Shown here: positions 2,687 through 30,746 of the stretch, in pieces
Position numbering within the stretch: position 1 is the stretch's first letter
Layout of the letters: the number at the start of each line of letters is the position of its first letter
UHGV virus genome: UHGV-0192366
Source: a virus
Length of the DNA stretch: 35,794 nt
Reading direction: 5' to 3' (one strand)
Notes under the pieces: generated by a model
Seen by the model: the letters and a program-made list of their open reading frames with translations, nothing else
Told to the model about the DNA's origin: nothing
Database searches by the model: none
Made by a program: the position numbers and the translations under genes

Positions 2687-3085
2687 ATGTCTTACGGGAA
2701 AAGAGTATTTGATCTGAGAAAGCAGTTAAATTTAACTCTCGAGAAATTCGGTGAACCACTAGGAGTGACTAAGACTGCGATCTCTAGAATAGAGAAAGAA
2801 GAACGTACAATAACAGATCAAATGGCTAAAGCCATATGTAGAGAATATGGAGTGAACGAAGAATGGCTATTATCTGGAACAGGCGAAATGTTCAAGCAAC
2901 CATCCGATGAAATTGGGTATTATGTAGAAGATTTACTGGAATATGACGGACATGGAAATCCTTTTTACGATATGATCATAGAAATGATGAAGAAATATCA
3001 AGAACTGGATGAAAAATCAAAAACTGTTATACGAGAGTACTTCAAAAGCGTAGGTTCTGGGTTAAGTGAAAAAAGGGAAGACTAA
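2687..3085 (+). CDS. XRE-family HTH repressor, CI-like (no peptidase S24 domain)
   Basis: HTH LTLEKFGEPLGVTKTAISRIEKEE followed by the NEEWLLSG motif common in Firmicutes phage repressors. Diverges from the early promoter. Confidence 0.75.
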   Translation: MSYGKRVFDLRKQLNLTLEKFGEPLGVTKTAISRIEKEERTITDQMAKAICREYGVNEEWLLSGTGEMFKQPSDEIGYYVEDLLEYDGHGNPFYDMIIEMMKKYQELDEKSKTVIREYFKSVGSGLSEKRED

Positions 3086-3192
3086 AGTCTCCCTCTTTTC
3101 TCCAGATACCTATGTAATATCGAAACAAGCTGCTTAATGATTCTGTAGTCGTTACCATTCAGCTTGGATAACAAGATATTTAATTCGTCCAT
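3082..3192 (-). CDS. 36-aa helical peptide ORF (MDELNILLSKLNGNDYRIIKQLVSILHRYLEKRGRL)
   Basis: GGAGGG RBS 8 nt upstream of ATG. Below the ORF-track cutoff. Its stop overlaps the stop of the CI-like gene convergently. Confidence 0.4.
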   Translation of the reverse strand: MDELNILLSKLNGNDYRIIKQLVSILHRYLEKRGRL

Positions 3193-3241
3193 CGTGAGTC
3201 CCTCCTAACTGCAAAAACACATGTTCGAAATTCCTGAATAT

Positions 3242-3270
3242 ATAATACTATTTCAGTGAATAAAAATCAA
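3242..3270 (-). promoter_or_regulatory. minus-strand promoter TTGATT-17-TATTAT, flanked by inverted repeat ATGTTCGAA / TTCGAACAT
   Basis: Hexamers read on the minus strand. IR arms at ~3221-3229 and ~3279-3287 bracket the promoter. Confidence 0.45.
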
Positions 3271-3388
3271 TATTTTGTTCGAACATTTGTTCTGTTATTT
3301 TATGGCAATATTTTGCCCTCTATTAAGTAAACAATTAAAATTCGGGAAACTTACGCAAAAATGGACAATCGTCCCAGATCTGGGACAC

Positions 3389-3586
3389 TTATTTGTATGG
3401 AGAGTCGATAAGGTCAGAAATTCGGACTTTTAAGCCCCTGGCAAGCAATTCCAATGTGTCGGCTGTCGGTGATATTTCACCATTTGCAATGCGGTTGATC
3501 GTTGATTTTGATATTCCGGTCGCAATGGATACTTGCCGAGTAGATAGGTTTTTATCGAGCATGATCTTATCGAGTAGTATTTTCAT
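3389..3586 (-). CDS. small XRE-family HTH protein (Cro/SinR-like, 65 aa)
   Basis: Classic HTH LSTRQVSIATGISKSTINRIANGE. Diverges from the lipoprotein gene. Direct repeats ATACTGGAAA x2 lie in the intergenic region 3609-3641. Confidence 0.7.
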   Translation of the reverse strand: MKILLDKIMLDKNLSTRQVSIATGISKSTINRIANGEISPTADTLELLARGLKVRISDLIDSPYK

Positions 3587-3711
3587 AATATTTTAATTGT
3601 AGTATATTCCGATACTGGAAACTACAGGGAAATACTGGAAATGATATAACCGCTTCGGCGTTTATATATAGAGTAAAGTGGTGTTAATGTACATAAGAAA
3701 GTGAGGAAGCT

Positions 3712-4242
3712 ATGAAAAAGAAAATTGTAGCAATGTTATTAGTAGGAGCTATGGCATTATCCATTACAGCATGTGGTGGGGATGCCGAACCATCCAAAGA
3801 CGCCGAGGCAAAGACAGAAGCAACAACAGAGCAGAAAGAAGGATCAAAAGAAGAAGCACAGCCAGTCGATGACGGAATCATAGATTTTACAGCAGAAAAA
3901 TTTAATGTAAAATATGTACGACATGAATTTGCGAATGATTATGAGGGAAATAAATGTCTGCTTTACTATTATACCTTTACAAATAATTCGGACAAAAACG
4001 CAACAGCTGGAATTGCTGCAAACGTACAGTGTTTTCAGGACGGTGGCGAGTGTGAAATAGGAATTATGGCAGAACAGAACGACTCTATGAACAATTACGC
4101 TATAAATGAAGTGCAGCCAGGTGGAACGGTTGAAGTATGCCAGGTATATAAATTGAAGAGTGATACTGAGCTCACAATCGAAGCATCCGATATGATATCG
4201 TTTGACAACAAGAAGGATACTCAGAAAATCGCCGTGCAATAA
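3712..4242 (+). CDS. secreted lipoprotein (lipobox LSITAC); candidate superinfection-exclusion/lysogenic-conversion protein
   Basis: Signal peptide MKKKIVAMLLVGAMALSITAC-GG. GAGGAAG RBS. Located between the immunity genes and int. Confidence 0.7.
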   Translation: MKKKIVAMLLVGAMALSITACGGDAEPSKDAEAKTEATTEQKEGSKEEAQPVDDGIIDFTAEKFNVKYVRHEFANDYEGNKCLLYYYTFTNNSDKNATAGIAANVQCFQDGGECEIGIMAEQNDSMNNYAINEVQPGGTVEVCQVYKLKSDTELTIEASDMISFDNKKDTQKIAVQ

Positions 4243-4280: not shown

Positions 4281-4408
4281 CTACATATCCGAAGATATGC
4301 GATTAAAATCCAAGAATATTGTATCATCTTCGGAGCAGTCATGCAAGTGGAACATCAGTTCGCACGTTGGCTGTTATTTTTATACTTAAATTTAAAGGAG
4401 ATGACGAA

Positions 4409-5515
4409 ATGGCAACAGCAAAGCAGCTGCCCTCCGGTACATGGAGGTGTCTTGTATATAGCCACAAAGAAAAGCTATATGACAGGGAAGGAAAACCAAT
4501 TATCGACGAGAAGACAGGGAAACAGAAGGAAAAGAGAATATACGAATCCTTTACAAGCTCCCTTCCGGGGCGAAAGGGAAAGCAGGATGCAGAAGCGCAG
4601 GCGGCTACATTTCTTGCAGAGCGAGAATTTAAACAGCGCCCGGAAAACCTAAGCATAAGAGAGGCCTTTAAACGGTACATAGCCGCGAAAGAAAATGTGC
4701 TGTCAGAAACCACATTGCGCGGGTATGAGACGATTATGAACAACCAGATTGCAGATATTGCAGAAATCAGTATACGCAAGATCACACCAGAGAATGTGCA
4801 GATGTGGATCAATAATCTATCCGCAAGACTATCGCCAAAAACCGTAAAGAACGCCTATGGACTTTTTATCCCGGTAATGTCTATGTATGCCCCAGATCGG
4901 ACATTTAAAACCACCCTCCCTCAGTCGGAAGAACTAGAGTATTATACTCCATCCGATCAAGATATAGTAAATCTAATAGAGTACATTAAGGGAACAGAAC
5001 TTGAAAAAGCTGTGCTTCTGGCTGCTTTTGGCAGCCTTAGACGCGGAGAAGTGTGCGGACTCGAAAAAGAGGATATAAACGGAAATTCGATTAGAGTCCG
5101 GATTACAAGAGTGCGCGGAAGAAAAGGGATGATCGAGAAGTCACCTAAGACGAAAAAGAGTTACCGATATATTATTTTTCCAGAATTTGTTATACGAAAA
5201 TTTGATGATGTAGAAGGAAAACTTGTTAAGATGCACCCGGAAGATATCTCTAAAAAGTTTGGGCGTATACTGCAAGCGGCAGGGATACCAAAGTTCCGAT
5301 TCCACGATCTCAGACATTATACCGCATCGATCATGCACGCTATCGGGATACCTGACCAGTATATAATGAAGCGTGGCGGTTGGAAATCTGATCGCGTGTT
5401 AAAAAAAGTCTATCGCAACACGATTGATGCAGAAGACAAGAAATTTATCGATAAAGTAAACTCACATTTCGAGAACATGCAACACGAAATGCAACACGTA
5501 GAAAAAGAAGCCTGA
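4409..5515 (+). CDS. int: tyrosine recombinase / phage integrase
   Basis: AAAGGAG RBS, ATG at 4409 (the track start at 4319 is TTG). C-terminal catalytic region HDLRHYTASIM...GGWKSDRVLKKVYRNT is typical of Y-recombinases. N-terminal arm-binding-like SGTWRC. Confidence 0.9.
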   Translation: MATAKQLPSGTWRCLVYSHKEKLYDREGKPIIDEKTGKQKEKRIYESFTSSLPGRKGKQDAEAQAATFLAEREFKQRPENLSIREAFKRYIAAKENVLSETTLRGYETIMNNQIADIAEISIRKITPENVQMWINNLSARLSPKTVKNAYGLFIPVMSMYAPDRTFKTTLPQSEELEYYTPSDQDIVNLIEYIKGTELEKAVLLAAFGSLRRGEVCGLEKEDINGNSIRVRITRVRGRKGMIEKSPKTKKSYRYIIFPEFVIRKFDDVEGKLVKMHPEDISKKFGRILQAAGIPKFRFHDLRHYTASIMHAIGIPDQYIMKRGGWKSDRVLKKVYRNTIDAEDKKFIDKVNSHFENMQHEMQHVEKEA

Positions 5516-25377: not shown

Positions 25378-25381
25378 ACAA

Positions 25382-25454
25382 CGGGTATAGCAGGATTCGA
25401 ACCTGCGACAAATCGGTTAACAGCCGATCGCTCTACCAACTGAGCTATACACCC
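25382..25454 (-). tRNA. tRNA-Asn (anticodon GTT), phage-encoded
   Basis: Canonical cloverleaf read manually: acceptor GGGTGTA/TATACCC, D-arm GCTCAGTTGGTAGAGC, anticodon stem-loop ATCGG-CTGTTAA-CCGAT, T-arm GCAGGTTCGAATCCTGC. CCA not encoded. Confidence 0.8.
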
Positions 25455-25648
25455 GTAGGATGCCTTTTATTGACATCCTTAACCCTATCCGCACTCGGGT
25501 ACTGACACTAAATATAGATTGCTGAATCTATTTTTGTTTGTTTCGCAGATCTGCGGATATCTGCGTTTTGGTACCATTTGTGATGTAAGTCCGGTGTGCA
25601 CTCCCAGAACAGACCTCAGCTGTGCAGCCTGTATACTCACATCACAAA

Positions 25649-25720
25649 GCGGAGCACTTGGAATCGAACCAAGGACACAGGGCGCGACCCTGCGCGTCTA
25701 CCACTGATGCTATACTCCGC
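25649..25720 (-). ncRNA. non-canonical tRNA-like gene (perfect acceptor, D and T arms; anticodon arm CAGGG-TCGCG-CCCTG with a 5-nt loop)
   Basis: GCGGAGTATAGCATCAGTGGTAGACGCGCAGGGTCGCGCCCTGTGTCCTTGGTTCGATTCCAAGTGCTCCGC. T-arm CTTGGTTCGATTCCAAG and acceptor pairing are intact. The anticodon loop is too short. Possible G-1:C73. Confidence 0.5.
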
Positions 25721-26284: not shown

Positions 26285-26501
26285 CTCCCGGAATTGGCTT
26301 TTTGATGTTGTACTTGCTCGCTATGTATCCTAGAGTGTCCGTATTTGTTCTGTCAGCCCTTTTAAAATCACAGGCAAATGCTTTATGCTCCTGTTGCTTT
26401 AAAGCTGTCTCGCAGGGCTTTTTCGTTGCCATATCATGTGCATCTATCTTTCGGATGACTCCTGCCGTCTCCTTTCTGCGCTTCATGGTCTCTCTTGTCA
26501 T
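26277..26501 (-). CDS. hypothetical protein (74 aa, basic)
   Basis: Clean ORF in the early operon. Confidence 0.4.
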   Translation of the reverse strand: MTRETMKRRKETAGVIRKIDAHDMATKKPCETALKQQEHKAFACDFKRADRTNTDTLGYIASKYNIKKPIPGGD

Positions 26502-27103
26502 TCCTGCATCACCTCAATTTCCTCTCCTGTCAGCTCTTCAAGCTTCTGTCGCATTTCTTCAATGGTCATTTTCTTTGGTTCTTTGCGCTCCCAGATGAGT
26601 TCGAGATTGCTTTTAACAAACACTTCTTCTATGCTTTCGAGTGATTCTGGAATAATTCTATAGACCTTGACGATATCCCCGCCTCTGTAGGTACCGTACC
26701 ACTCCAAATTATTTGTATATCCACTGATTTCATTGCGTCCGCATTCTCTTACGGCCAACCCAGCTAATACAAGATACCTATTCCCATCTCTCTGTTCAAC
26801 CACCATTCCGTCTTTTAAATCCGCTTTTGTAAATTCTTTCTGCATGTAATCACTCCATTCCAAGATTTTATAATTGTACTTTTCTGCATAAACACGAGAC
26901 GAATATTCTCCGATTCCGTAATAACACGTTCCTTCGTTGTGCACATTATAACTTGTATTTTCCAAATAACTATCACCTGTGCACCACTTCATTCCTTGCT
27001 CATGCATTCTTTCGCAAAAGTCTTTCGCTTCCTCTTCTGTCTTGCAGTGTACTGCAATCTTATTTTCTTCATTTTTAAATTCATCCCAGTTAAATTTTTT
27101 CAT
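26498..27103 (-). CDS. hypothetical phage protein (201 aa)
   Basis: Clean ORF. The 4-nt overlap with the downstream gene suggests coupling. Confidence 0.5.
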   Translation of the reverse strand: MKKFNWDEFKNEENKIAVHCKTEEEAKDFCERMHEQGMKWCTGDSYLENTSYNVHNEGTCYYGIGEYSSRVYAEKYNYKILEWSDYMQKEFTKADLKDGMVVEQRDGNRYLVLAGLAVRECGRNEISGYTNNLEWYGTYRGGDIVKVYRIIPESLESIEEVFVKSNLELIWERKEPKKMTIEEMRQKLEELTGEEIEVMQE

Positions 27104-27300: not shown

Positions 27301-27486
27301 TTATTCCTCCTTACCTACATACTTCTCCACAATATCTACTGCACAAGTCAGCCCATAAAGATAGCTTTCCAGCTCTTCTGCTGTTTTGTTTGCTCCGTGT
27401 CTTTTCCTTTCTTCCTTCAAGGTTTCGTAGGCGTCATTTTTCATGGATTCGATTTCTTCCACGATTTTCTCTAATGTGTTCATCAC
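27301..27486 (-). CDS. hypothetical protein (61 aa)
   Basis: Coupled ORF in the operon. Confidence 0.4.
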   Translation of the reverse strand: MMNTLEKIVEEIESMKNDAYETLKEERKRHGANKTAEELESYLYGLTCAVDIVEKYVGKEE

Positions 27487-27959
27487 TCCACCTCCAATAA
27501 TTCCGGATTATCAAAAATATTGCCGTAAACTTCAAACTCGCTTCTCTCAATGTAGAAATCTGTCAACGGCATCGGAAGGCAAAACGGTTCGCATTTACTC
27601 AACGCATCTGTTTCAATCACTTCTGTATGCCATCCAATAACTTCATCGACTCTTCTTAACGTTTCTGCATCAATAACATAAAATTTTCCAAACGAAACTT
27701 TTGATAAATCTTTGTCGTTTCCATGACCTCGTAAAATATCATTCTCCCAAATCTTCTTACCATTCTTGTCGGTCAGTCCTGTGTACTGGCAGAGGGTGTC
27801 AGGATCAATCAAGTCATTAAATATATTAGTTCCATTACAAATCAGATGTTTTATCGGTTTACCATCTTCTGTTAGCGGATTGGTAATATATGCATACTGG
27901 CCTTCCACCCATTCACCGTTATCTTTTCTCTTTGCTTTAAAAAGGATTTCTCTATTCAT
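27483..27959 (-). CDS. YopX-family phage protein
   Basis: ILFKAKRKDNGEWVEGQY...LCQYTGLTDKNGKKIWENDIL...EVYGNIFDNPELLE is a hallmark of YopX. Confidence 0.8.
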   Translation of the reverse strand: MNREILFKAKRKDNGEWVEGQYAYITNPLTEDGKPIKHLICNGTNIFNDLIDPDTLCQYTGLTDKNGKKIWENDILRGHGNDKDLSKVSFGKFYVIDAETLRRVDEVIGWHTEVIETDALSKCEPFCLPMPLTDFYIERSEFEVYGNIFDNPELLEVE

Positions 27960-28125
27960 CTTTTACCTCCACTTCATTGTCGTATTTCATACACTTTCCA
28001 TCCTTGTACGCTACACATTTCTCTTTAATACACGGATGCAACACTGGTCTAACAAAATCGCCGTTGCCAATAAGCATTGCTTTTATCTCTTCTTTTCCCG
28101 TTAAATCAGGGCAAAATAAAATCAT
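27952..28125 (-). CDS. small Cys-rich protein (57 aa from ATG ~28125)
   Basis: ATGA-type overlap with the Lar stop. CPD...C..C..C pattern. The track start at 28146 is GTG. Confidence 0.4.
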   Translation of the reverse strand: MILFCPDLTGKEEIKAMLIGNGDFVRPVLHPCIKEKCVAYKDGKCMKYDNEVEVKDE

Positions 28126-28301
28126 TCTTTCACTCTCCTGTTCCACATTCCACTAGCCGTAGTTTCTAAAGCACAATTTTGTGTTGCAACTCCGCATTCT
28201 TTGCAGTACACAAAAGCTGATATAACTTTTCCATCAAATCCGTAATTGATTTTCAGCATTGCTTCTCCACCACAAAATGGGCATTTCTTTAATTCTTCCA
28301 T
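28122..28301 (-). CDS. lar: Lar-family restriction-alleviation-like zinc-ribbon protein (59 aa)
   Basis: MEELKKCPFCGGEAMLKINYGFDGKVISAFVYCKECGVATQNCALETTASGMWNRRVKE. The CPFCGG...CxxCG signature matches the Lar family. Below the track cutoff. TAAATG junction with the upstream gene. Confidence 0.55.
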   Translation of the reverse strand: MEELKKCPFCGGEAMLKINYGFDGKVISAFVYCKECGVATQNCALETTASGMWNRRVKE

Positions 28302-28631
28302 TTATTCACTCCAATCTAATCTCTGTCCGCAATCCCAACAATAGTTTGTGTTCTGTCTTTCATTCATCATTTCTGTCAACAGACAGTTACCGCAAGTCTG
28401 ACAAGTGTAATATTTCGTTTTCTTAATTAAGCCATCACTCATTCCATTTTCCCTGGGTCTCTTCGGCAACTGCTTTTCTAATGCTTCGATTGCTACTAGA
28501 AATGCATCGACATAATTGTTATAATCACTTCTTTCTCTAGTTTTCTGCGGAAGTGAGCGCAATGTTGCATTGTACGCATCTCGCATTTTGCACATTCTCT
28601 CTATCGCTTCTCTAACTTTCTTCTCGTTCAT
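28302..28631 (-). CDS. hypothetical protein with C-terminal zinc ribbon (CQTCGN...CWDCGQ)
   Basis: Cys4 motif at the C-terminus, helical N-terminus. Confidence 0.5.
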   Translation of the reverse strand: MNEKKVREAIERMCKMRDAYNATLRSLPQKTRERSDYNNYVDAFLVAIEALEKQLPKRPRENGMSDGLIKKTKYYTCQTCGNCLLTEMMNERQNTNYCWDCGQRLDWSE

Positions 28632-28806
28632 CTAATTTTCCTCCCGTTATTTTCAACCATAAACCACTCTCTCCATCTTTTTCGTAGAGAAAATCCGTCT
28701 CTATCCCACAGACCGCCAATTCATTCATTGTCCTCACGCAATCCTCTGCATCAGCGCATTTGATCGTGTCGCCTTTTCGCAAGCGTGTTTCTTCTGTTTT
28801 TGGCAT
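28612..28806 (-). CDS. hypothetical protein (64 aa)
   Basis: ORF between the MTase and the zinc-ribbon gene. Confidence 0.4.
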   Translation of the reverse strand: MPKTEETRLRKGDTIKCADAEDCVRTMNELAVCGIETDFLYEKDGESGLWLKITGGKLDEREES

Positions 28807-28821
28807 TAGTCATTCCTCCTA

Positions 28822-30183
28822 CTACGCAAACCTAATTTGCTGCTCATCCTCATATATTTCTATGTTCGGCACCCTATTCCCGATTTTTAAATACGGGCAG
28901 TTTGCTTCTACCAGTTTCTGTGCCATGATTGGCACTACACTGTTTCCGATTCTAGCTACTTGTTTTGCGATCGGATATCTCCTGTATTTGTAATCCCTGT
29001 CAATGATGTAGTCCTCCGGAAATCCTTGCATTAATTTAAGCTCTTCCGGTTTTAACATTCTTAGGAAAATATCCTTCAGGACATACTTTTCGCCTTCGAT
29101 ATCCAGAATCACATTTACTAATCCGAAACGATCTTTTGTAGTAATCGTTGCAAGCGGATTTGAAAGTTCTTGTCCTCCGCCAGTTCCGTAATACTTAATT
29201 AAAAACGCAGATATCAATCCAAAATGTCCAGGTGATGTTGTGATTGTGTGTAAAGGTTCGTTGCATCCCTGTCCGATTCCACTTTTATAAAATTTTGTAA
29301 CAAAAGCTGTCACCAGGCCATACCTGTTTGATGTGTCGATTGTTTTAATTGGTTCTGTCAGCAACTGTCCTCTTGATTCTCCAATTTTTGTTTCTCCGTG
29401 GTATTGAATCATAAATGCAACAGCATCTTTATTTCTCACGATATAGGGAGATGGATTGTCTATTACATATTTTCTGATTCCATTTGCAATCCTTTTCATC
29501 GTTGCATCTGCCAACGGTTTTGGTCTATCAAATATTGTTTTCCCTAAATCAGACCAATCGATATATGCCCCGCATTCCTGCCATTTCGGATCTCTGGATT
29601 TAAAATTCGTCTTTTCTGGCCACACGATGTCTTTTCCATCTCTCCTGAAAATTGCATACCAGCGCTTTCTTGTAGTTGGCGCGCCATAGTCTGCCGCAAT
29701 AAGCTCCCGGCAGTCGAATATATACCCGAGACTCTTCATTGCCGCAATGAACTTCTTATAATCTTCCCCACGCCGCTCCTTAATCGGATGCCCGTTTTCA
29801 TCCAAAGGCCCCCACTGTTGGATTTCTTCCACGTTTTCCATGATAATCACATCAGGAAGAATTGCTTTTGCGTGTTTGTATACCGCCCAAGGCAAAATCC
29901 GAAGTCCTTTTTCCCTCGGCTTCCCACCTTTTGCCTTACTGTGGCTGGTGCAATCAGGACTCGCCCACATTAAAGCAACTCGCTTTCCTTTCACATATTT
30001 CTTCAAATCTACCTTGAAGATATCTTCTGTGAGATGCAATGTTTTCGGATGGTTTGTCTTGTGCATCAAAATTGCATCCGGATCGTGATTGATTGCAATA
30101 TCTACTTGTCTTCCAAGTGCCATTTCTATTCCTACGCTCGCTCCACCTCCTCCGGCGAAGCAATCTATAATCAAATTTTCCAT
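28822..30183 (-). CDS. DNA (cytosine-5)-methyltransferase, orphan, with triplicated target-recognition-like repeats (multispecific phage type)
   Basis: Motif I DCFAGGGGAS, IV SPDC, VI IIMENVEE, VIII TRKRWYAIFRR, X GNSVVP. Variable region aa ~278-360 has three repeats P(I/L)xTIxT..(Y/F)GL(V/I)xAF..K(F/Y)Y. No cognate endonuclease gene nearby. Confidence 0.85.
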   Translation of the reverse strand: MENLIIDCFAGGGGASVGIEMALGRQVDIAINHDPDAILMHKTNHPKTLHLTEDIFKVDLKKYVKGKRVALMWASPDCTSHSKAKGGKPREKGLRILPWAVYKHAKAILPDVIIMENVEEIQQWGPLDENGHPIKERRGEDYKKFIAAMKSLGYIFDCRELIAADYGAPTTRKRWYAIFRRDGKDIVWPEKTNFKSRDPKWQECGAYIDWSDLGKTIFDRPKPLADATMKRIANGIRKYVIDNPSPYIVRNKDAVAFMIQYHGETKIGESRGQLLTEPIKTIDTSNRYGLVTAFVTKFYKSGIGQGCNEPLHTITTSPGHFGLISAFLIKYYGTGGGQELSNPLATITTKDRFGLVNVILDIEGEKYVLKDIFLRMLKPEELKLMQGFPEDYIIDRDYKYRRYPIAKQVARIGNSVVPIMAQKLVEANCPYLKIGNRVPNIEIYEDEQQIRFA

Positions 30184-30257
30184 TTTCTCAGAAGCCCGGT
30201 ATACCCTTGCCCCGGCCGGAGGCTGGCTCCTTTCTATTTTCGCTTATTTTTTATAAC

Positions 30258-30746
30258 CTACTGTAAATACCTCCGCATTAATATCCGGTTTGGATTCGAT
30301 ACCGCTCTGTTGAGCCGGCAACTAGTCCGCACCCAGCCCTCGTGAAACTCCATGTAATTTGCAATGTTGCCAAAGATATCCTTGACCGAAGCTTCCTGTT
30401 TCTTTGACTCAGGCATCATATCGTTATCCTTCAGGAAGTTTTTAAACGTTTCAATGCTCGCATCTATTCCGCTCTCTTCGCTTATTGCTGCATAGATGTT
30501 CTGGATCGTAAGTCCGTATTCGATCATGTACTTAATTTCTCCCTTGTACGGTTCGTATTGTTTTCTTTTATTTTCCATCTTTCTTAACCACATCCTCTTG
30601 TTTGCTATTACCCTCTTTTTCACTTCTTTTCCGGTAATATCCTCAAGCACTCTGCAGATATGCTCATCCGAGCATCCGAGTTTTACCATCTCTTCGATTT
30701 GGAACTGGTACGGATCCAGAAAGTGTGCTGGCCTACGCATTTTCAA
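30258..30746 (-). CDS. hypothetical protein (162 aa)
   Basis: Clean ORF upstream of the MTase. Confidence 0.45.
   Translation of the reverse strand: MKMRRPAHFLDPYQFQIEEMVKLGCSDEHICRVLEDITGKEVKKRVIANKRMWLRKMENKRKQYEPYKGEIKYMIEYGLTIQNIYAAISEESGIDASIETFKNFLKDNDMMPESKKQEASVKDIFGNIANYMEFHEGWVRTSCRLNRAVSNPNRILMRRYLQ

What the first reader, a model, noticed from the sequence alone, without database searches (positions are those of the whole stretch)
27952..30183. Anti-restriction island: orphan multispecific C5-MTase, Lar-like protein and a run of coupled Cys-rich/zinc-ribbon mini-proteins
The methyltransferase has all catalytic motifs but no partner endonuclease. It also has three tandem TRD-like repeats, as in SPbeta/phi3T self-protecting phages. 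Immediately downstream are four small genes (64 aa; 109 aa with Cys4; 59-aa Lar-like CPFCGG protein; 57-aa Cys protein) joined by TAAATG/ATGA overlaps, so they are translated as a unit. Only Lar has an ascribed anti-restriction role. The others are uncharacterised and may be new anti-defense factors.
Basis: partly seen in the sequence, partly recalled or inferred. Interest (0 to 1): 0.55.

Follow-up and report, generated by a model that had tools for sequence, protein, structure and literature searches.

The report
Phage orphan methylase plus small genes
This is the variable accessory region of a temperate Ruminococcus gnavus gut phage, holding a restriction-evading cytosine methylase from a known broad-specificity family, a Lar-like zinc protein and several small proteins of unknown function; it is largely ordinary and already annotated this way in related phages.

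Summary
- C5-methyltransferase, 453 aa
- s64, 64 aa
- z109, a 109-aa zinc-ribbon protein
- lar59, a 59-aa Lar/RalR-family protein
- c57, a 57-aa protein with four conserved cysteines
- then YopX

The window is a whole temperate R. gnavus siphophage and encodes no restriction enzyme, so the methylase is an orphan.

Its three 32-33-aa repeats are real. They are not SPbeta-type recognition domains. They mark a huge phage- and plasmid-borne family whose members carry 1-10 such units. The last two units are conserved across the family; only the upstream units vary. Tested relatives (Aeromonas ARM81ld_p31, Paracoccus prophage enzymes) have relaxed specificity.

The "island" is not a co-inherited unit:
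- The methylase and Lar co-occur no more than chance predicts.
- Gene overlaps are genome-wide.
- Every small gene has its own ribosome-binding site.
- s64 is not cysteine-rich.

Only s64-z109 is a fixed pair. No function could be assigned to s64, z109 or c57.

Published R. gnavus phage papers already list both the methylase and Lar as restriction-evasion genes. The most interesting by-product is the variable repeat number in the methylase family.

The parts
28822..30183 (-). Orphan DNA cytosine-C5 methyltransferase, 453 aa, of the phage/plasmid family with tandem 32-aa units
   Evidence: PF00145 E 1.8e-25 and phrog_116 E 1.3e-85. AF2 model pLDDT 78.9, best PDB matches M.HaeIII and M.HhaI at E ~1e-15 to 1e-16. 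35% identical over 95% of its length to Aeromonas phage ARM81ld_p31.
29950..29961 (-). Motif IV, S75-P-D-C78, holding the catalytic cysteine (family variant of the usual P-C)
   Evidence: S75, P76 and C78 are invariant in alignments A1 and A5.
29830..29838 (-). Motif VI, E116-N-V118
   Evidence: Invariant in A1 and A5.
29275..29370 (-). Repeat unit 1 (residues 272-303, GQLLTEPIKTIDTSNRYGLVTAFVTKFYKSGI). This is the variable position (-3 from the end).
   Evidence: Repeat HMM i-E 4e-15. Positional analysis.
29176..29274 (-). Repeat unit 2 (residues 304-336). Penultimate unit, conserved across the family.
   Evidence: Repeat HMM i-E 1.2e-19. 107 of 140 penultimate units best match another protein's penultimate unit.
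29077..29175 (-). Repeat unit 3 (residues 337-369). Last unit, the canonical PxxTxTT...G element before motif IX.
   Evidence: Repeat HMM i-E 3.5e-10. 126 of 141 last units best match another protein's last unit.
28936..29061 (-). Motifs IX (R375-MLKPEELKLMQGFP) and X (G413-NSV)
   Evidence: Aligned to 3g7u motifs IX-X. Invariant R375, E381, F388, G413, N414, V416.
28612..28806 (-). s64: 64-aa protein of unknown function, predicted beta-alpha-beta-beta fold, not Cys-rich. Fixed upstream partner of z109.
   Evidence: No Pfam, PHROG, NCBIfam or PADLOC family. 62 homologue clusters, those named by a source from M. gnavus or an R. gnavus phage. Always 175 nt upstream of z109 in 23 of 80 loci. AF2 pLDDT 78 with no significant structural match.
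28302..28631 (-). z109: 109-aa protein with an N-terminal helical part (MxEKKVREAIE...AIEALEKQLPKK) and a C-terminal C4 zinc ribbon ending CGQRLDWSE
   Evidence: phrog_10714 E 3.5e-18, function unknown. Only sub-threshold zinc-ribbon Pfam hits. C77, C80 and C101 invariant. 327 relatives in IMG/VR.
28122..28301 (-). lar59: Lar/RalR-family zinc-ribbon protein, 59 aa
   Evidence: PF14354 47.2 bits (GA 28.6) and TIGR03655 41.6 bits (cut-off 39.6). 29% identical to E. coli RalR/Lar b1348, with the 4 Cys and WN[KR]R aligned.
27952..28125 (-). c57: 57-aa protein with four conserved cysteines (C5, C32, C37, C45), unknown function
   Evidence: 82 homologue clusters, no family. Cys conservation 0.90-0.99. 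AGGAG lies upstream of ATG 28125.
27483..27959 (-). YopX-family protein, 158 aa.
   Evidence: PF09643 E 6.1e-17, TIGR01671 52.8 bits.

Best explanation
The region is part of the hypervariable accessory block, analogous to the lambda nin region. It lies between the replication module (replisome organiser, RusA) and the late activator (RinA-like) of a temperate Ruminococcus/Mediterraneibacter gnavus siphophage.

Methylase. The first gene is an orphan C5-cytosine methyltransferase from a very large family carried by phages and plasmids. The hallmark of this family is a target-recognition region built from tandem 32-aa units with consensus GQSLDEPLHTITTKDRFGLVTAFLTKYYGTGG. By inference, the enzyme methylates cytosines in many short sequence contexts on replicating phage DNA. 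Progeny would then enter new hosts pre-protected against several type II restriction enzymes.

Small genes. The following genes are independent, separately exchangeable cassettes, transcribed in the same early operon:
- the s64-z109 pair
- a Lar/RalR-like zinc ribbon
- the four-cysteine c57
- YopX

Their functions are unknown. Lar59 may modulate type I restriction or act as a small DNase. z109 and c57 are probably metal-binding proteins that bind nucleic acid or protein.

Shown: gene identities, orphan status, repeat architecture, family distribution, mosaicism.

Inferred: methylase activity, breadth of specificity, the protective role, and any role of the small proteins.
For: Genome context.
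- The window is a complete phage: antirepressor, cI-like repressor, integrase, amidase, terminase, replisome organiser, RusA and Gp157.
- It is related to published R. gnavus phages.
- No nuclease partner is present.

Methylase.
- All MTase motifs are invariant and the fold matches C5-MTases.
- Homologues occur in 374 phage and 422 plasmid records, with 8166 representative clusters at E<=0.001.
- Repeat units number 1-10 per protein, mode 5, in 141 full-length representatives.
- ARM81ld_p31 (35% identity over 95% of the query, five units) is described as having relaxed specificity (PMC5537653).
- Two Paracoccus prophage enzymes, which PMC5537653 links to this family through Phi2LM21_p23, gave partial protection at CCNGG, CCWGG, AGCT, CCGG and GCN7GC (PMC3925955).
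- Close homologues (82-87% identical) sit in unrelated phage backbones, always without a nuclease.

Mosaicism.
- The same slot holds an N6/N4 MTase in phiRM10 and a PAPS-reductase in phiRgPS_6.
- In 80 z109 loci, the MTase is present in 7 and Lar in 17.

Published annotation. Related phages are already annotated with a DNA methyltransferase and Lar as R-M evasion factors (PMC10072058), and specifically with a C5 MTase (IPR001525) and Lar in PMC13435783.
Against: - No methylation data exist for this phage or any close homologue.
- One family member, Phi2LM21_p23, was inactive in E. coli (PMC5537653).
- The start codon has only a weak Shine-Dalgarno sequence.
- GGCC and CCWGG are depleted in the genome. 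This suggests the lineage still avoids some sites rather than relying on methylation.
- AF2 could not model units 2-3 (pLDDT below 50), so how the units contact DNA is unknown.
- Some C5-MTase-like enzymes transfer other groups. The 8yf3 carboxymethyltransferase is among the top matches.
Confidence: 0.68

Rival explanations
1. This is a dedicated anti-restriction/anti-defence island. The methylase, Lar and the small coupled proteins are co-selected and co-translated, and s64, z109 and c57 are new anti-defence factors.
For: - Two members have anti-restriction annotations.
- The genes are in one transcription unit with no internal promoter or terminator signal on the minus strand.
- z109 relatives often lie next to DNA-modification genes. 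Among 142 upstream ORFs of z109 homologues there were 9 C5 MTases, 7 PAPS reductases, 2 N6/N4 MTases and 1 N6 MTase.
- Lar is directly downstream of z109 in 15-17 of 80 loci.
- A z109-like gene directly follows an 87%-identical MTase in unrelated phages.
Against: - MTase and Lar co-occur at chance level: 1 of 80 loci against 1.5 expected, and 5 of 29 phages against 5.8 expected (PMC13435783).
- The exact gene order occurs in none of the 80 loci.
- Overlaps and short gaps are the rule across the genome, at 30 of 45 junctions, and each gene has its own SD.
- The small proteins give no hit in any family library or in the PDB.
- No control for the base rate of MTases near any small gene of this region was possible.
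Confidence: 0.15
2. The methylase serves the phage's own biology, such as regulating replication, gene expression or packaging, rather than restriction evasion. The Dziewit/Radlinska group proposed this for MTases located by replication modules.
For: - The gene lies directly downstream of the replication module.
- PMC5537653 argues that MTase genes adjacent to replication or segregation genes may be regulatory.
- Site avoidance of GGCC and CCWGG persists.
Against: - The gene is dispensable in the phage group. It is absent from most relatives, and the slot may hold other genes or nothing.
- Near-identical copies move between unrelated backbones and plasmids.
- Relaxed specificity in tested relatives fits protection better than site-specific regulation (PMC3925955).
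Confidence: 0.12
3. Lar59 is not a restriction-alleviation factor. It is a RalR-like small DNase: either a toxin or a host-DNA-degrading takeover factor.
For: - E. coli Lar is the same protein as RalR, shown to be a Mg/Ca-dependent non-specific DNase and the toxin of a type I toxin-antitoxin pair (PMC4041452; one search shows the current annotation 'endodeoxyribonuclease toxin RalR').
- Lar59 aligns with RalR over 58 residues, including the 4 Cys and the WNKR/WNRR motif. The K52Q change in that motif inactivates RalR.
Against: - Identity is only 29%.
- No antisense RNA partner was looked for or seen.
- Restriction alleviation by Rac Lar was shown genetically (King and Murray 1995, cited in PMC11318856).
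- A 59-aa zinc ribbon is an unusual nuclease.
Confidence: 0.2
4. The three repeats are three independent recognition domains, giving three discrete specificities as in phage SPR.
For: - Each unit carries the P-x-x-T-[IL]-T-T...G core, which also occurs in the SPR, rho11s and H2 sequences (SPTITT, TTLTS, SPTLTT).
- Unit number varies among homologues.
Against: - The units are 32-33 aa and 41-52% identical to each other.
- The last two units are positionally orthologous in nearly all family members, whatever the unit count.
- The unit profile does not detect the SPR recognition domains (E = 2).
- Tested relatives give partial protection at many sites rather than full protection at a few (PMC3925955).
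Confidence: 0.1

Closest known systems
Relaxed-specificity phage m5C methyltransferases (Aeromonas phage ARM81ld_p31; Paracoccus prophage JCM7686_0772 and JCM7686_2655; Sinorhizobium Phi2LM21_p23)
   Same: - Full-length homology to ARM81ld_p31: 35% identity over 95% of the query.
- The same S-P-D-C motif IV.
- The same tandem 32-aa units, five in ARM81ld_p31.
- Orphan, phage-borne, and located near replication genes.
   Different: - Only three units and 453 aa, at the short end of the family; the Proteobacterial enzymes are 550-700 aa.
- Host is a Gram-positive gut anaerobe.
- Activity and specificity are untested here.
Multispecific C5-methyltransferases of Bacillus phages SPR, SPbeta, phi3T, rho11s and H2
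   Same: - Orphan phage C5-MTase.
- An enlarged variable region between motifs VIII and IX.
- Reiterated P-T-[IL]-T-T...G cores.
- A self-protection rationale.
   Different: - Different subfamily: 24% identity in the catalytic N-terminus only, E 6e-5.
- Motif IV is S-P-D-C here, against G-S-P-C-Q in the Bacillus enzymes.
- The units are shorter, mutually similar and partly family-invariant.
- The repeat profile does not find the Bacillus recognition domains.
Lar / RalR of the E. coli Rac prophage (PF14354, TIGR03655)
   Same: - Size.
- A CPFCG...CxxC zinc ribbon.
- A C-terminal WN[KR]R motif.
- Scores above both curated cut-offs.
- Prophage-borne.
   Different: - 29% identity.
- Firmicute phage.
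- Neither alleviation of type I restriction nor DNase activity has been tested.
- No RalA-like antisense RNA is known.
nin region of lambdoid phages and the replication-to-rinA accessory region of Staphylococcus and dairy siphophages
   Same: - The same genome position.
- Many small, tightly packed, dispensable and mosaic genes, including YopX, methylases and zinc-ribbon proteins.
   Different: The gene families are largely specific to gut Lachnospiraceae phages.

Membership tests
DNA cytosine-C5 methyltransferase (PF00145) | Profile score above the curated threshold | tested here: met
   90.5 bits against GA 22, residues 5-426. TIGR00675 reaches only 78.4 bits against a cut-off of 100.65, so it is not a canonical Dcm.
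DNA cytosine-C5 methyltransferase (PF00145) | Catalytic motifs I (FxGxG), IV (catalytic Cys), VI (ENV), VIII, IX and X (GN[SA]V) | tested here: met
   F9/G11/G13/G14, S75-P76-x-C78, E116-N117-V118, T170/R172/R174, R375...F388 and G413-N414-V416 are all invariant in A1 and A5. Motif IV reads P-D-C rather than P-C, a family-wide variant.
DNA cytosine-C5 methyltransferase (PF00145) | C5-MTase fold | tested here: met
   AF2 pLDDT 78.9 with a confident catalytic core. M.HaeIII 3ubt E 3.8e-16; M.HhaI matches at about 1e-15.
DNA cytosine-C5 methyltransferase (PF00145) | Transfers methyl to C5 of cytosine in DNA | not testable with these tools
   Needs bisulfite or nanopore methylome data or an in vitro assay.
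Relaxed-specificity phage m5C MTases (ARM81ld_p31 type) | Full-length homology and shared tandem-unit architecture | tested here: met
   35.4% identity over 95% of the query. Unit HMM finds 5 units in ARM81ld_p31 and 3 here.
Relaxed-specificity phage m5C MTases (ARM81ld_p31 type) | Orphan: no cognate endonuclease | tested here: met
   No nuclease family other than RusA in the window. None next to close homologues.
Relaxed-specificity phage m5C MTases (ARM81ld_p31 type) | Partial protection at many unrelated cytosine-containing sites | not testable with these tools
   Known only for relatives (PMC3925955, PMC5537653).
SPbeta/SPR-type multispecific C5-MTases | Close sequence relationship to SPR, rho11s, H2 and phi3T enzymes | tested here: not met
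   BLASTP 24% identity over 147 aa, E 6e-5, N-terminal core only.
SPbeta/SPR-type multispecific C5-MTases | Several contiguous, mutually dissimilar recognition domains, each dispensable and giving one specificity | tested here: not met
   Units are 41-52% identical to each other. The last two are positionally conserved across the family. The unit profile misses the SPR recognition domains. Dispensability itself is not testable here.
SPbeta/SPR-type multispecific C5-MTases | Recognition-domain core motif [ST]-P-T-[IL]-T-[TS]...G | tested here: met
   EPIKTIDT, EPLHTITT and NPLATITT here, against SPTITT, SPTLTT and TTLTS in SPR and rho11s. A short motif only.
Lar restriction-alleviation family (PF14354 / TIGR03655) | Profile scores above curated cut-offs | tested here: met
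   47.2 against 28.6, and 41.6 against 39.6.
Lar restriction-alleviation family (PF14354 / TIGR03655) | Four zinc-ribbon cysteines and C-terminal WN[KR]R aligned with E. coli Lar/RalR | tested here: met
   C7, C10, C33, C36 and W53-N-R-R aligned.
Lar restriction-alleviation family (PF14354 / TIGR03655) | Alleviates type I restriction and enhances modification | not testable with these tools
   The archetype also has DNase-toxin activity (PMC4041452).
Named zinc-ribbon families (for z109 and c57) | Score above the gathering threshold of a curated zinc-ribbon family | tested here: not met
   z109's best hit is Zn_ribbon_6 at 15.8 bits against GA 25. c57 has no hit. Conserved Cys patterns still support metal binding.
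Anti-defence gene island (co-selected cluster) | Members co-occur more often than expected from their separate frequencies | tested here: not met
   MTase 7 of 80, Lar 17 of 80, both 1 of 80, against 1.5 expected. Published phages: MTase 8, Lar 21, both 5 of 29, against 5.8 expected. Only s64-z109 is a fixed pair.
Translationally coupled operon segment | Stop/start overlaps distinguishing this run from the rest of the genome | tested here: not met
   The overlaps exist, but 17 of 45 junctions overlap and 13 of 45 are 0-20 nt across the genome. Every gene has its own SD.

The most novel reading that the evidence does not exclude
The tandem 32-aa units of this phage and plasmid methylase family may be add-on DNA-recognition modules. 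A conserved two-unit core would be extended upstream by 0-8 fast-diverging units, and the number and identity of those extra units would set how many sequence contexts the enzyme methylates. That would give a structural explanation for the 'relaxed specificity' seen experimentally. It would also be a second, independently evolved route to multispecific self-protection besides the SPbeta-type enzymes. Separately, the fixed s64-z109 pair could be a new anti-restriction or methylase-modulating module.
Probability: 0.25. Interest if true: 0.6.

Novelty: new member of a known kind. Interest (0 to 1): 0.33.

Why it matters
As stated, the finding adds little. Orphan methylases and Lar-like genes are already listed as restriction-evasion genes in the published R. 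gnavus phages.

Two points could matter:

1. Methylase family. It is extremely widespread on phages and plasmids and is known to be promiscuous. Here it is shown to vary from 1 to 10 recognition-like units around a conserved two-unit core. This gives a concrete, testable handle on how mobile elements broaden methylation specificity, and possibly a scaffold for engineering.

2. Phage engineering. R. gnavus phages are being developed for gut microbiome engineering. Knowing which accessory genes overcome strain-specific restriction would help predict and extend host range.

Tried and rejected
- **AF2 of the methylase**. The catalytic core was confident, but units 2-3 had pLDDT below 50, so the geometry of the repeats could not be read.
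- **AF2 of s64, then Foldseek against PDB and BFVD**. The small beta-alpha-beta-beta fold was predicted reasonably (mean pLDDT 78), but the only match was an uncharacterised gut siphovirus protein.
- **Profile searches of s64, c57 and z109 against PDB sequences**. Nothing was significant.
- **A DksA/TraR-like reading of z109** (helical part plus CxxC-x17-CxxC; 1tjl at E 0.46). Rejected for three reasons: the Cys spacing varies among homologues, no zf-dskA_traR hit appeared, and the DxxDxA motif is absent.
- **PADLOC and NCBIfam scans of all small proteins**. No family beyond Lar and YopX was found.
- **z109 as a dedicated methylase partner.** About a quarter of z109 loci have a DNA-modification gene among the two nearest large upstream ORFs. 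The rest have YopX, Lar, replication genes or unknowns, and no matched control was available. Treated as unproven.
- **Promoter and terminator scan**. Hits were not above shuffle expectation.
- **Literature.** The original ARM81 methylase paper (J Gen Virol 2016) and Trautner 1996 (PMC450048) are not held. Their content is cited only through papers that are held, or marked as my own knowledge.


Full report
**1. What is there**

All genes in 25.9-35.1 kb of the window lie on the minus strand. In transcription order, the finding covers:

| Gene | Coordinates | Length |
|---|---|---|
| C5-methyltransferase | 30183-28822 | 453 aa |
| s64 | 28806-28612 | 64 aa |
| z109 | 28631-28302 | 109 aa |
| lar59 | 28301-28122 | 59 aa |
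| c57 | 28125-27952 | 57 aa |
| YopX protein (just outside the range) | 27959-27483 | 158 aa |

Family hits:
- The 453-aa protein matches PF00145 (E 1.8e-25) and phrog_116.
- lar59 passes PF14354 (47.2 bits against 28.6) and TIGR03655 (41.6 against 39.6).
- z109 matches only phrog_10714, which has no known function.
- s64 and c57 match nothing.

The junctions:
- MTase to s64: 15-nt gap
- s64 to z109: 20-nt overlap
- z109 to lar59: TAAATG
- lar59 to c57: ATGA
- c57 to YopX: 8-nt overlap

**2. Context**

The window is an entire temperate siphophage. It encodes an antirepressor, a cI-like repressor, an integrase, an amidase, structural genes, a terminase, two tRNAs, a RinA-like activator, the accessory block, a replisome organiser, RusA and Gp157. 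It shares 93-96%-identical patches with the published R. gnavus phages phiRM10 and phiRgPS_6.

No restriction endonuclease is encoded, so the methylase is an orphan.

The published descriptions of these phages already name a DNA methyltransferase and a Lar-family protein as restriction-evasion genes. This is stated in PMC10072058. PMC13435783 reports Lar in 21 of 29 phages, a C5 MTase in 8 of 29, and both in 5 of 29.

**3. The methylase**

All catalytic motifs are present and invariant among homologues. Motif IV reads S-P-D-C, a family-wide variant. An AF2 model has a confident catalytic core and matches M.HaeIII and M.HhaI at E ~1e-15 to 1e-16.

The three repeats are real:
- They cover residues 272-303, 304-336 and 337-369.
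- The best 20-aa self-score is 57, against 27.1 +/- 3.7 in shuffles.
- Units are 41-52% identical at protein level and 46-57% at DNA level, so the duplication is old.

**4. The repeats are a family trait**

Homologues are abundant:
- 374 phage records, from Gordonia, Mycobacterium, Pseudomonas, Vibrio, Burkholderia and others
- 422 plasmid records
- 8166 representative clusters at E<=0.001

A profile of the unit has the consensus GQSLDEPLHTITTKDRFGLVTAFLTKYYGTGG. It finds 1-10 units per protein, mode 5, in 141 full-length representatives.

The units are positionally ordered:
- 126 of 141 last units best match another protein's last unit.
- 107 of 140 penultimate units best match another protein's penultimate unit.
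- Units further upstream are much more divergent and intermix.
- Units within one protein are less alike (mean score 17) than same-position units across proteins (45, 31 and 23).

The window's enzyme therefore has the conserved two-unit core plus a single variable unit.

**5. Relation to SPbeta-type enzymes**

I fetched the SPR, rho11s and H2 methylases. They are only remotely related: 24% identity, E 6e-5, in the N-terminal core only.

Their sequences contain the short P-T-[IL]-T-T...G core, and my own recollection is that these cores lie in the mapped recognition domains. But the unit profile does not detect those domains (E = 2). It gives only a marginal hit (5.8 bits) to the conserved element just before motif IX.

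The comparison is an analogy of principle, not membership.

**6. Closest experimentally studied relatives**

- Aeromonas phage ARM81ld_p31 is 35% identical over 95% of the query and has five units. It is described as an m5C MTase with relaxed specificity (PMC5537653).
[quoted passage not shown] The link to our enzyme is through Phi2LM21_p23 (H19; PMC5537653).
- Phi2LM21_p23 itself was inactive in E. coli.

The best inference is that this is a promiscuous self-protecting methylase. Activity is not shown.

**7. Is it an island?**

Close homologues of the methylase (82-87% identical) occur in phages with unrelated replication modules (RecT, ERCC4 plus primase). They are followed by different small genes.

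In 80 IMG/VR loci carrying a z109 relative:
- s64 is present in 23, always exactly 175 nt upstream of z109.
- Lar is present in 17, usually immediately downstream of z109.
- The methylase (at least 89% identical) is present in 7.
- c57 is present in 7.
- The methylase and Lar occur together in 1, against 1.5 expected by chance.
- The window's full gene order occurs in none.

The slot upstream of s64 holds different things in different phages: the C5 MTase; an N6/N4 MTase plus a 127-aa ORF (phiRM10); a PAPS reductase (phiRgPS_6); the 127-aa ORF alone; other ORFs; or nothing.

Among 142 distinct large ORFs upstream of z109 relatives were 9 C5 MTases, 7 PAPS reductases, 2 N6/N4 MTases and 1 N6 MTase. 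There were also 9 YopX, 8 Lar and various replication genes. This is a mosaic accessory region, not a co-inherited unit. Only s64-z109 behaves as a pair.

**8. Coupling**

Of the 45 junctions between consecutive minus-strand ORFs, 17 overlap and 13 are 0-20 nt. Every small gene here has its own GGAG-type ribosome-binding site. The overlaps are real but do not single out this run.

**9. The small proteins**

- **s64.** It conserves one Cys only. It has many decayed variants that keep just the 5' and 3' ends. It is predicted as a beta-alpha-beta-beta domain (pLDDT 78) with no informative structural match.
- **z109.** It combines a conserved helical N-terminus with a variable C4 zinc ribbon ending CGQRLDWSE. 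PDB profile searches gave nothing significant, and a DksA/TraR-like idea was rejected.
- **c57.** It conserves four cysteines (C5, C32, C37, C45) but matches no family or structure.
- **lar59.** It aligns with E. coli RalR/Lar at 29% identity, including the four Cys and WN[KR]R. RalR has been shown to be a non-specific DNase toxin (PMC4041452), so the 'restriction alleviation' label is itself uncertain.
- None of the small proteins matches a defence-system model.

**10. Verdict**

- Orphan, probably broad-specificity, self-protecting methylase: yes.
- Lar-family member: yes.
- SPbeta-like triple recognition domains: no.
- A coupled anti-defence island: not supported.
- New anti-defence factors: untested.

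The finding is a new member of known kinds. The by-product worth following is the 1-10-unit architecture of the methylase family.

Noticed in passing
whole window: GGCC is strongly under-represented (17 observed against 48 expected, z -4.5). CCWGG (19 against 42) and GATC (131 against 183) are also depleted, while CCGG, GCGC and AGCT are at expectation. This suggests long-term selection by HaeIII-like and EcoRII-like restriction despite the methylase, or a recent acquisition of the methylase.
   Followed up: no
window 28612-28631 and IMG/VR loci L017-L041, L071, L090: s64 stays 86-95% identical while the overlapping z109 drops to 37% identity in some phages (L071, L090). Many s64 homologues are internal-deletion remnants that keep only the first ~21 and last ~14 codons. 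The conserved ends, and the conserved z109 N-terminus MxEKKVREAIE, look like recombination linker sequences at a mosaic boundary.
   Followed up: partly
window 28807-30257, compared with L001 (phiRM10) 2948-4144 and L002 (phiRgPS_6) 4351-5235: The slot between the conserved upstream gene (30258-30746) and s64 is a cassette-exchange hot spot. In different relatives it holds a C5 MTase, an N6/N4 MTase plus a 127-aa ORF, a PAPS-reductase (DndC-like?) protein, the 127-aa ORF alone, or nothing.
   Followed up: partly
window 25381-25455 and 25648-25720 (minus strand): Two phage-borne tRNA genes, tRNA-Asn(GTT) and tRNA-Ala(CGC), lie between the RinA-like activator gene and the small terminase gene. 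phiRM10 carries tRNA-Asn and phiRgPS_6 carries tRNA-Ile in the corresponding stretch downstream of RinA.
   Followed up: no
window 30184-30257: The 74-nt gap before the methylase start contains a GC-rich near-palindrome (CCGGCCGGAGGCTGG, 30212-30228), and the start codon has only a weak ribosome-binding site. This could be a regulatory element limiting methylase expression.
   Followed up: no
methylase homologues P0265-P0414 and plasmid hits H50-H64: The same methylase family is common on plasmids (422 records; 58 conjugative and 142 mobilizable; Acinetobacter, Streptomyces, Bacillus). Some representatives reach 800-1084 aa, with the MTase match starting around residue 430-515, so they carry large N-terminal extensions or fusions.
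   Followed up: no
methylase, PDB matches 8yf3: A recently solved DNA cytosine C5-carboxymethyltransferase (8yf3) is among the closest solved relatives by sequence (E 3e-5) and by fold. The chemistry installed by C5-MTase-like phage enzymes cannot be assumed to be methylation. No Cx-SAM synthase was found among the window proteins scanned against Pfam.
   Followed up: no
L010-L012 5680-5931 and 5907-6221: In unrelated gut phages, an 87%-identical methylase is followed by a z109-like gene. Next comes an 83-aa protein with a weak Lar C-terminal motif. After that is a DUF551-like protein whose first 22 residues are 77% identical to c57. Small-protein N-termini seem to be shuffled onto different C-terminal domains.
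   Followed up: no
window 26498-27103 (minus strand): A 201-aa protein of unknown function is conserved (47-88% identity) in 25 of the 80 z109 loci. It has a sub-threshold ubiquitin-like hit at its C-terminus (PF14560, 21.4 bits against 23.1).
   Followed up: no
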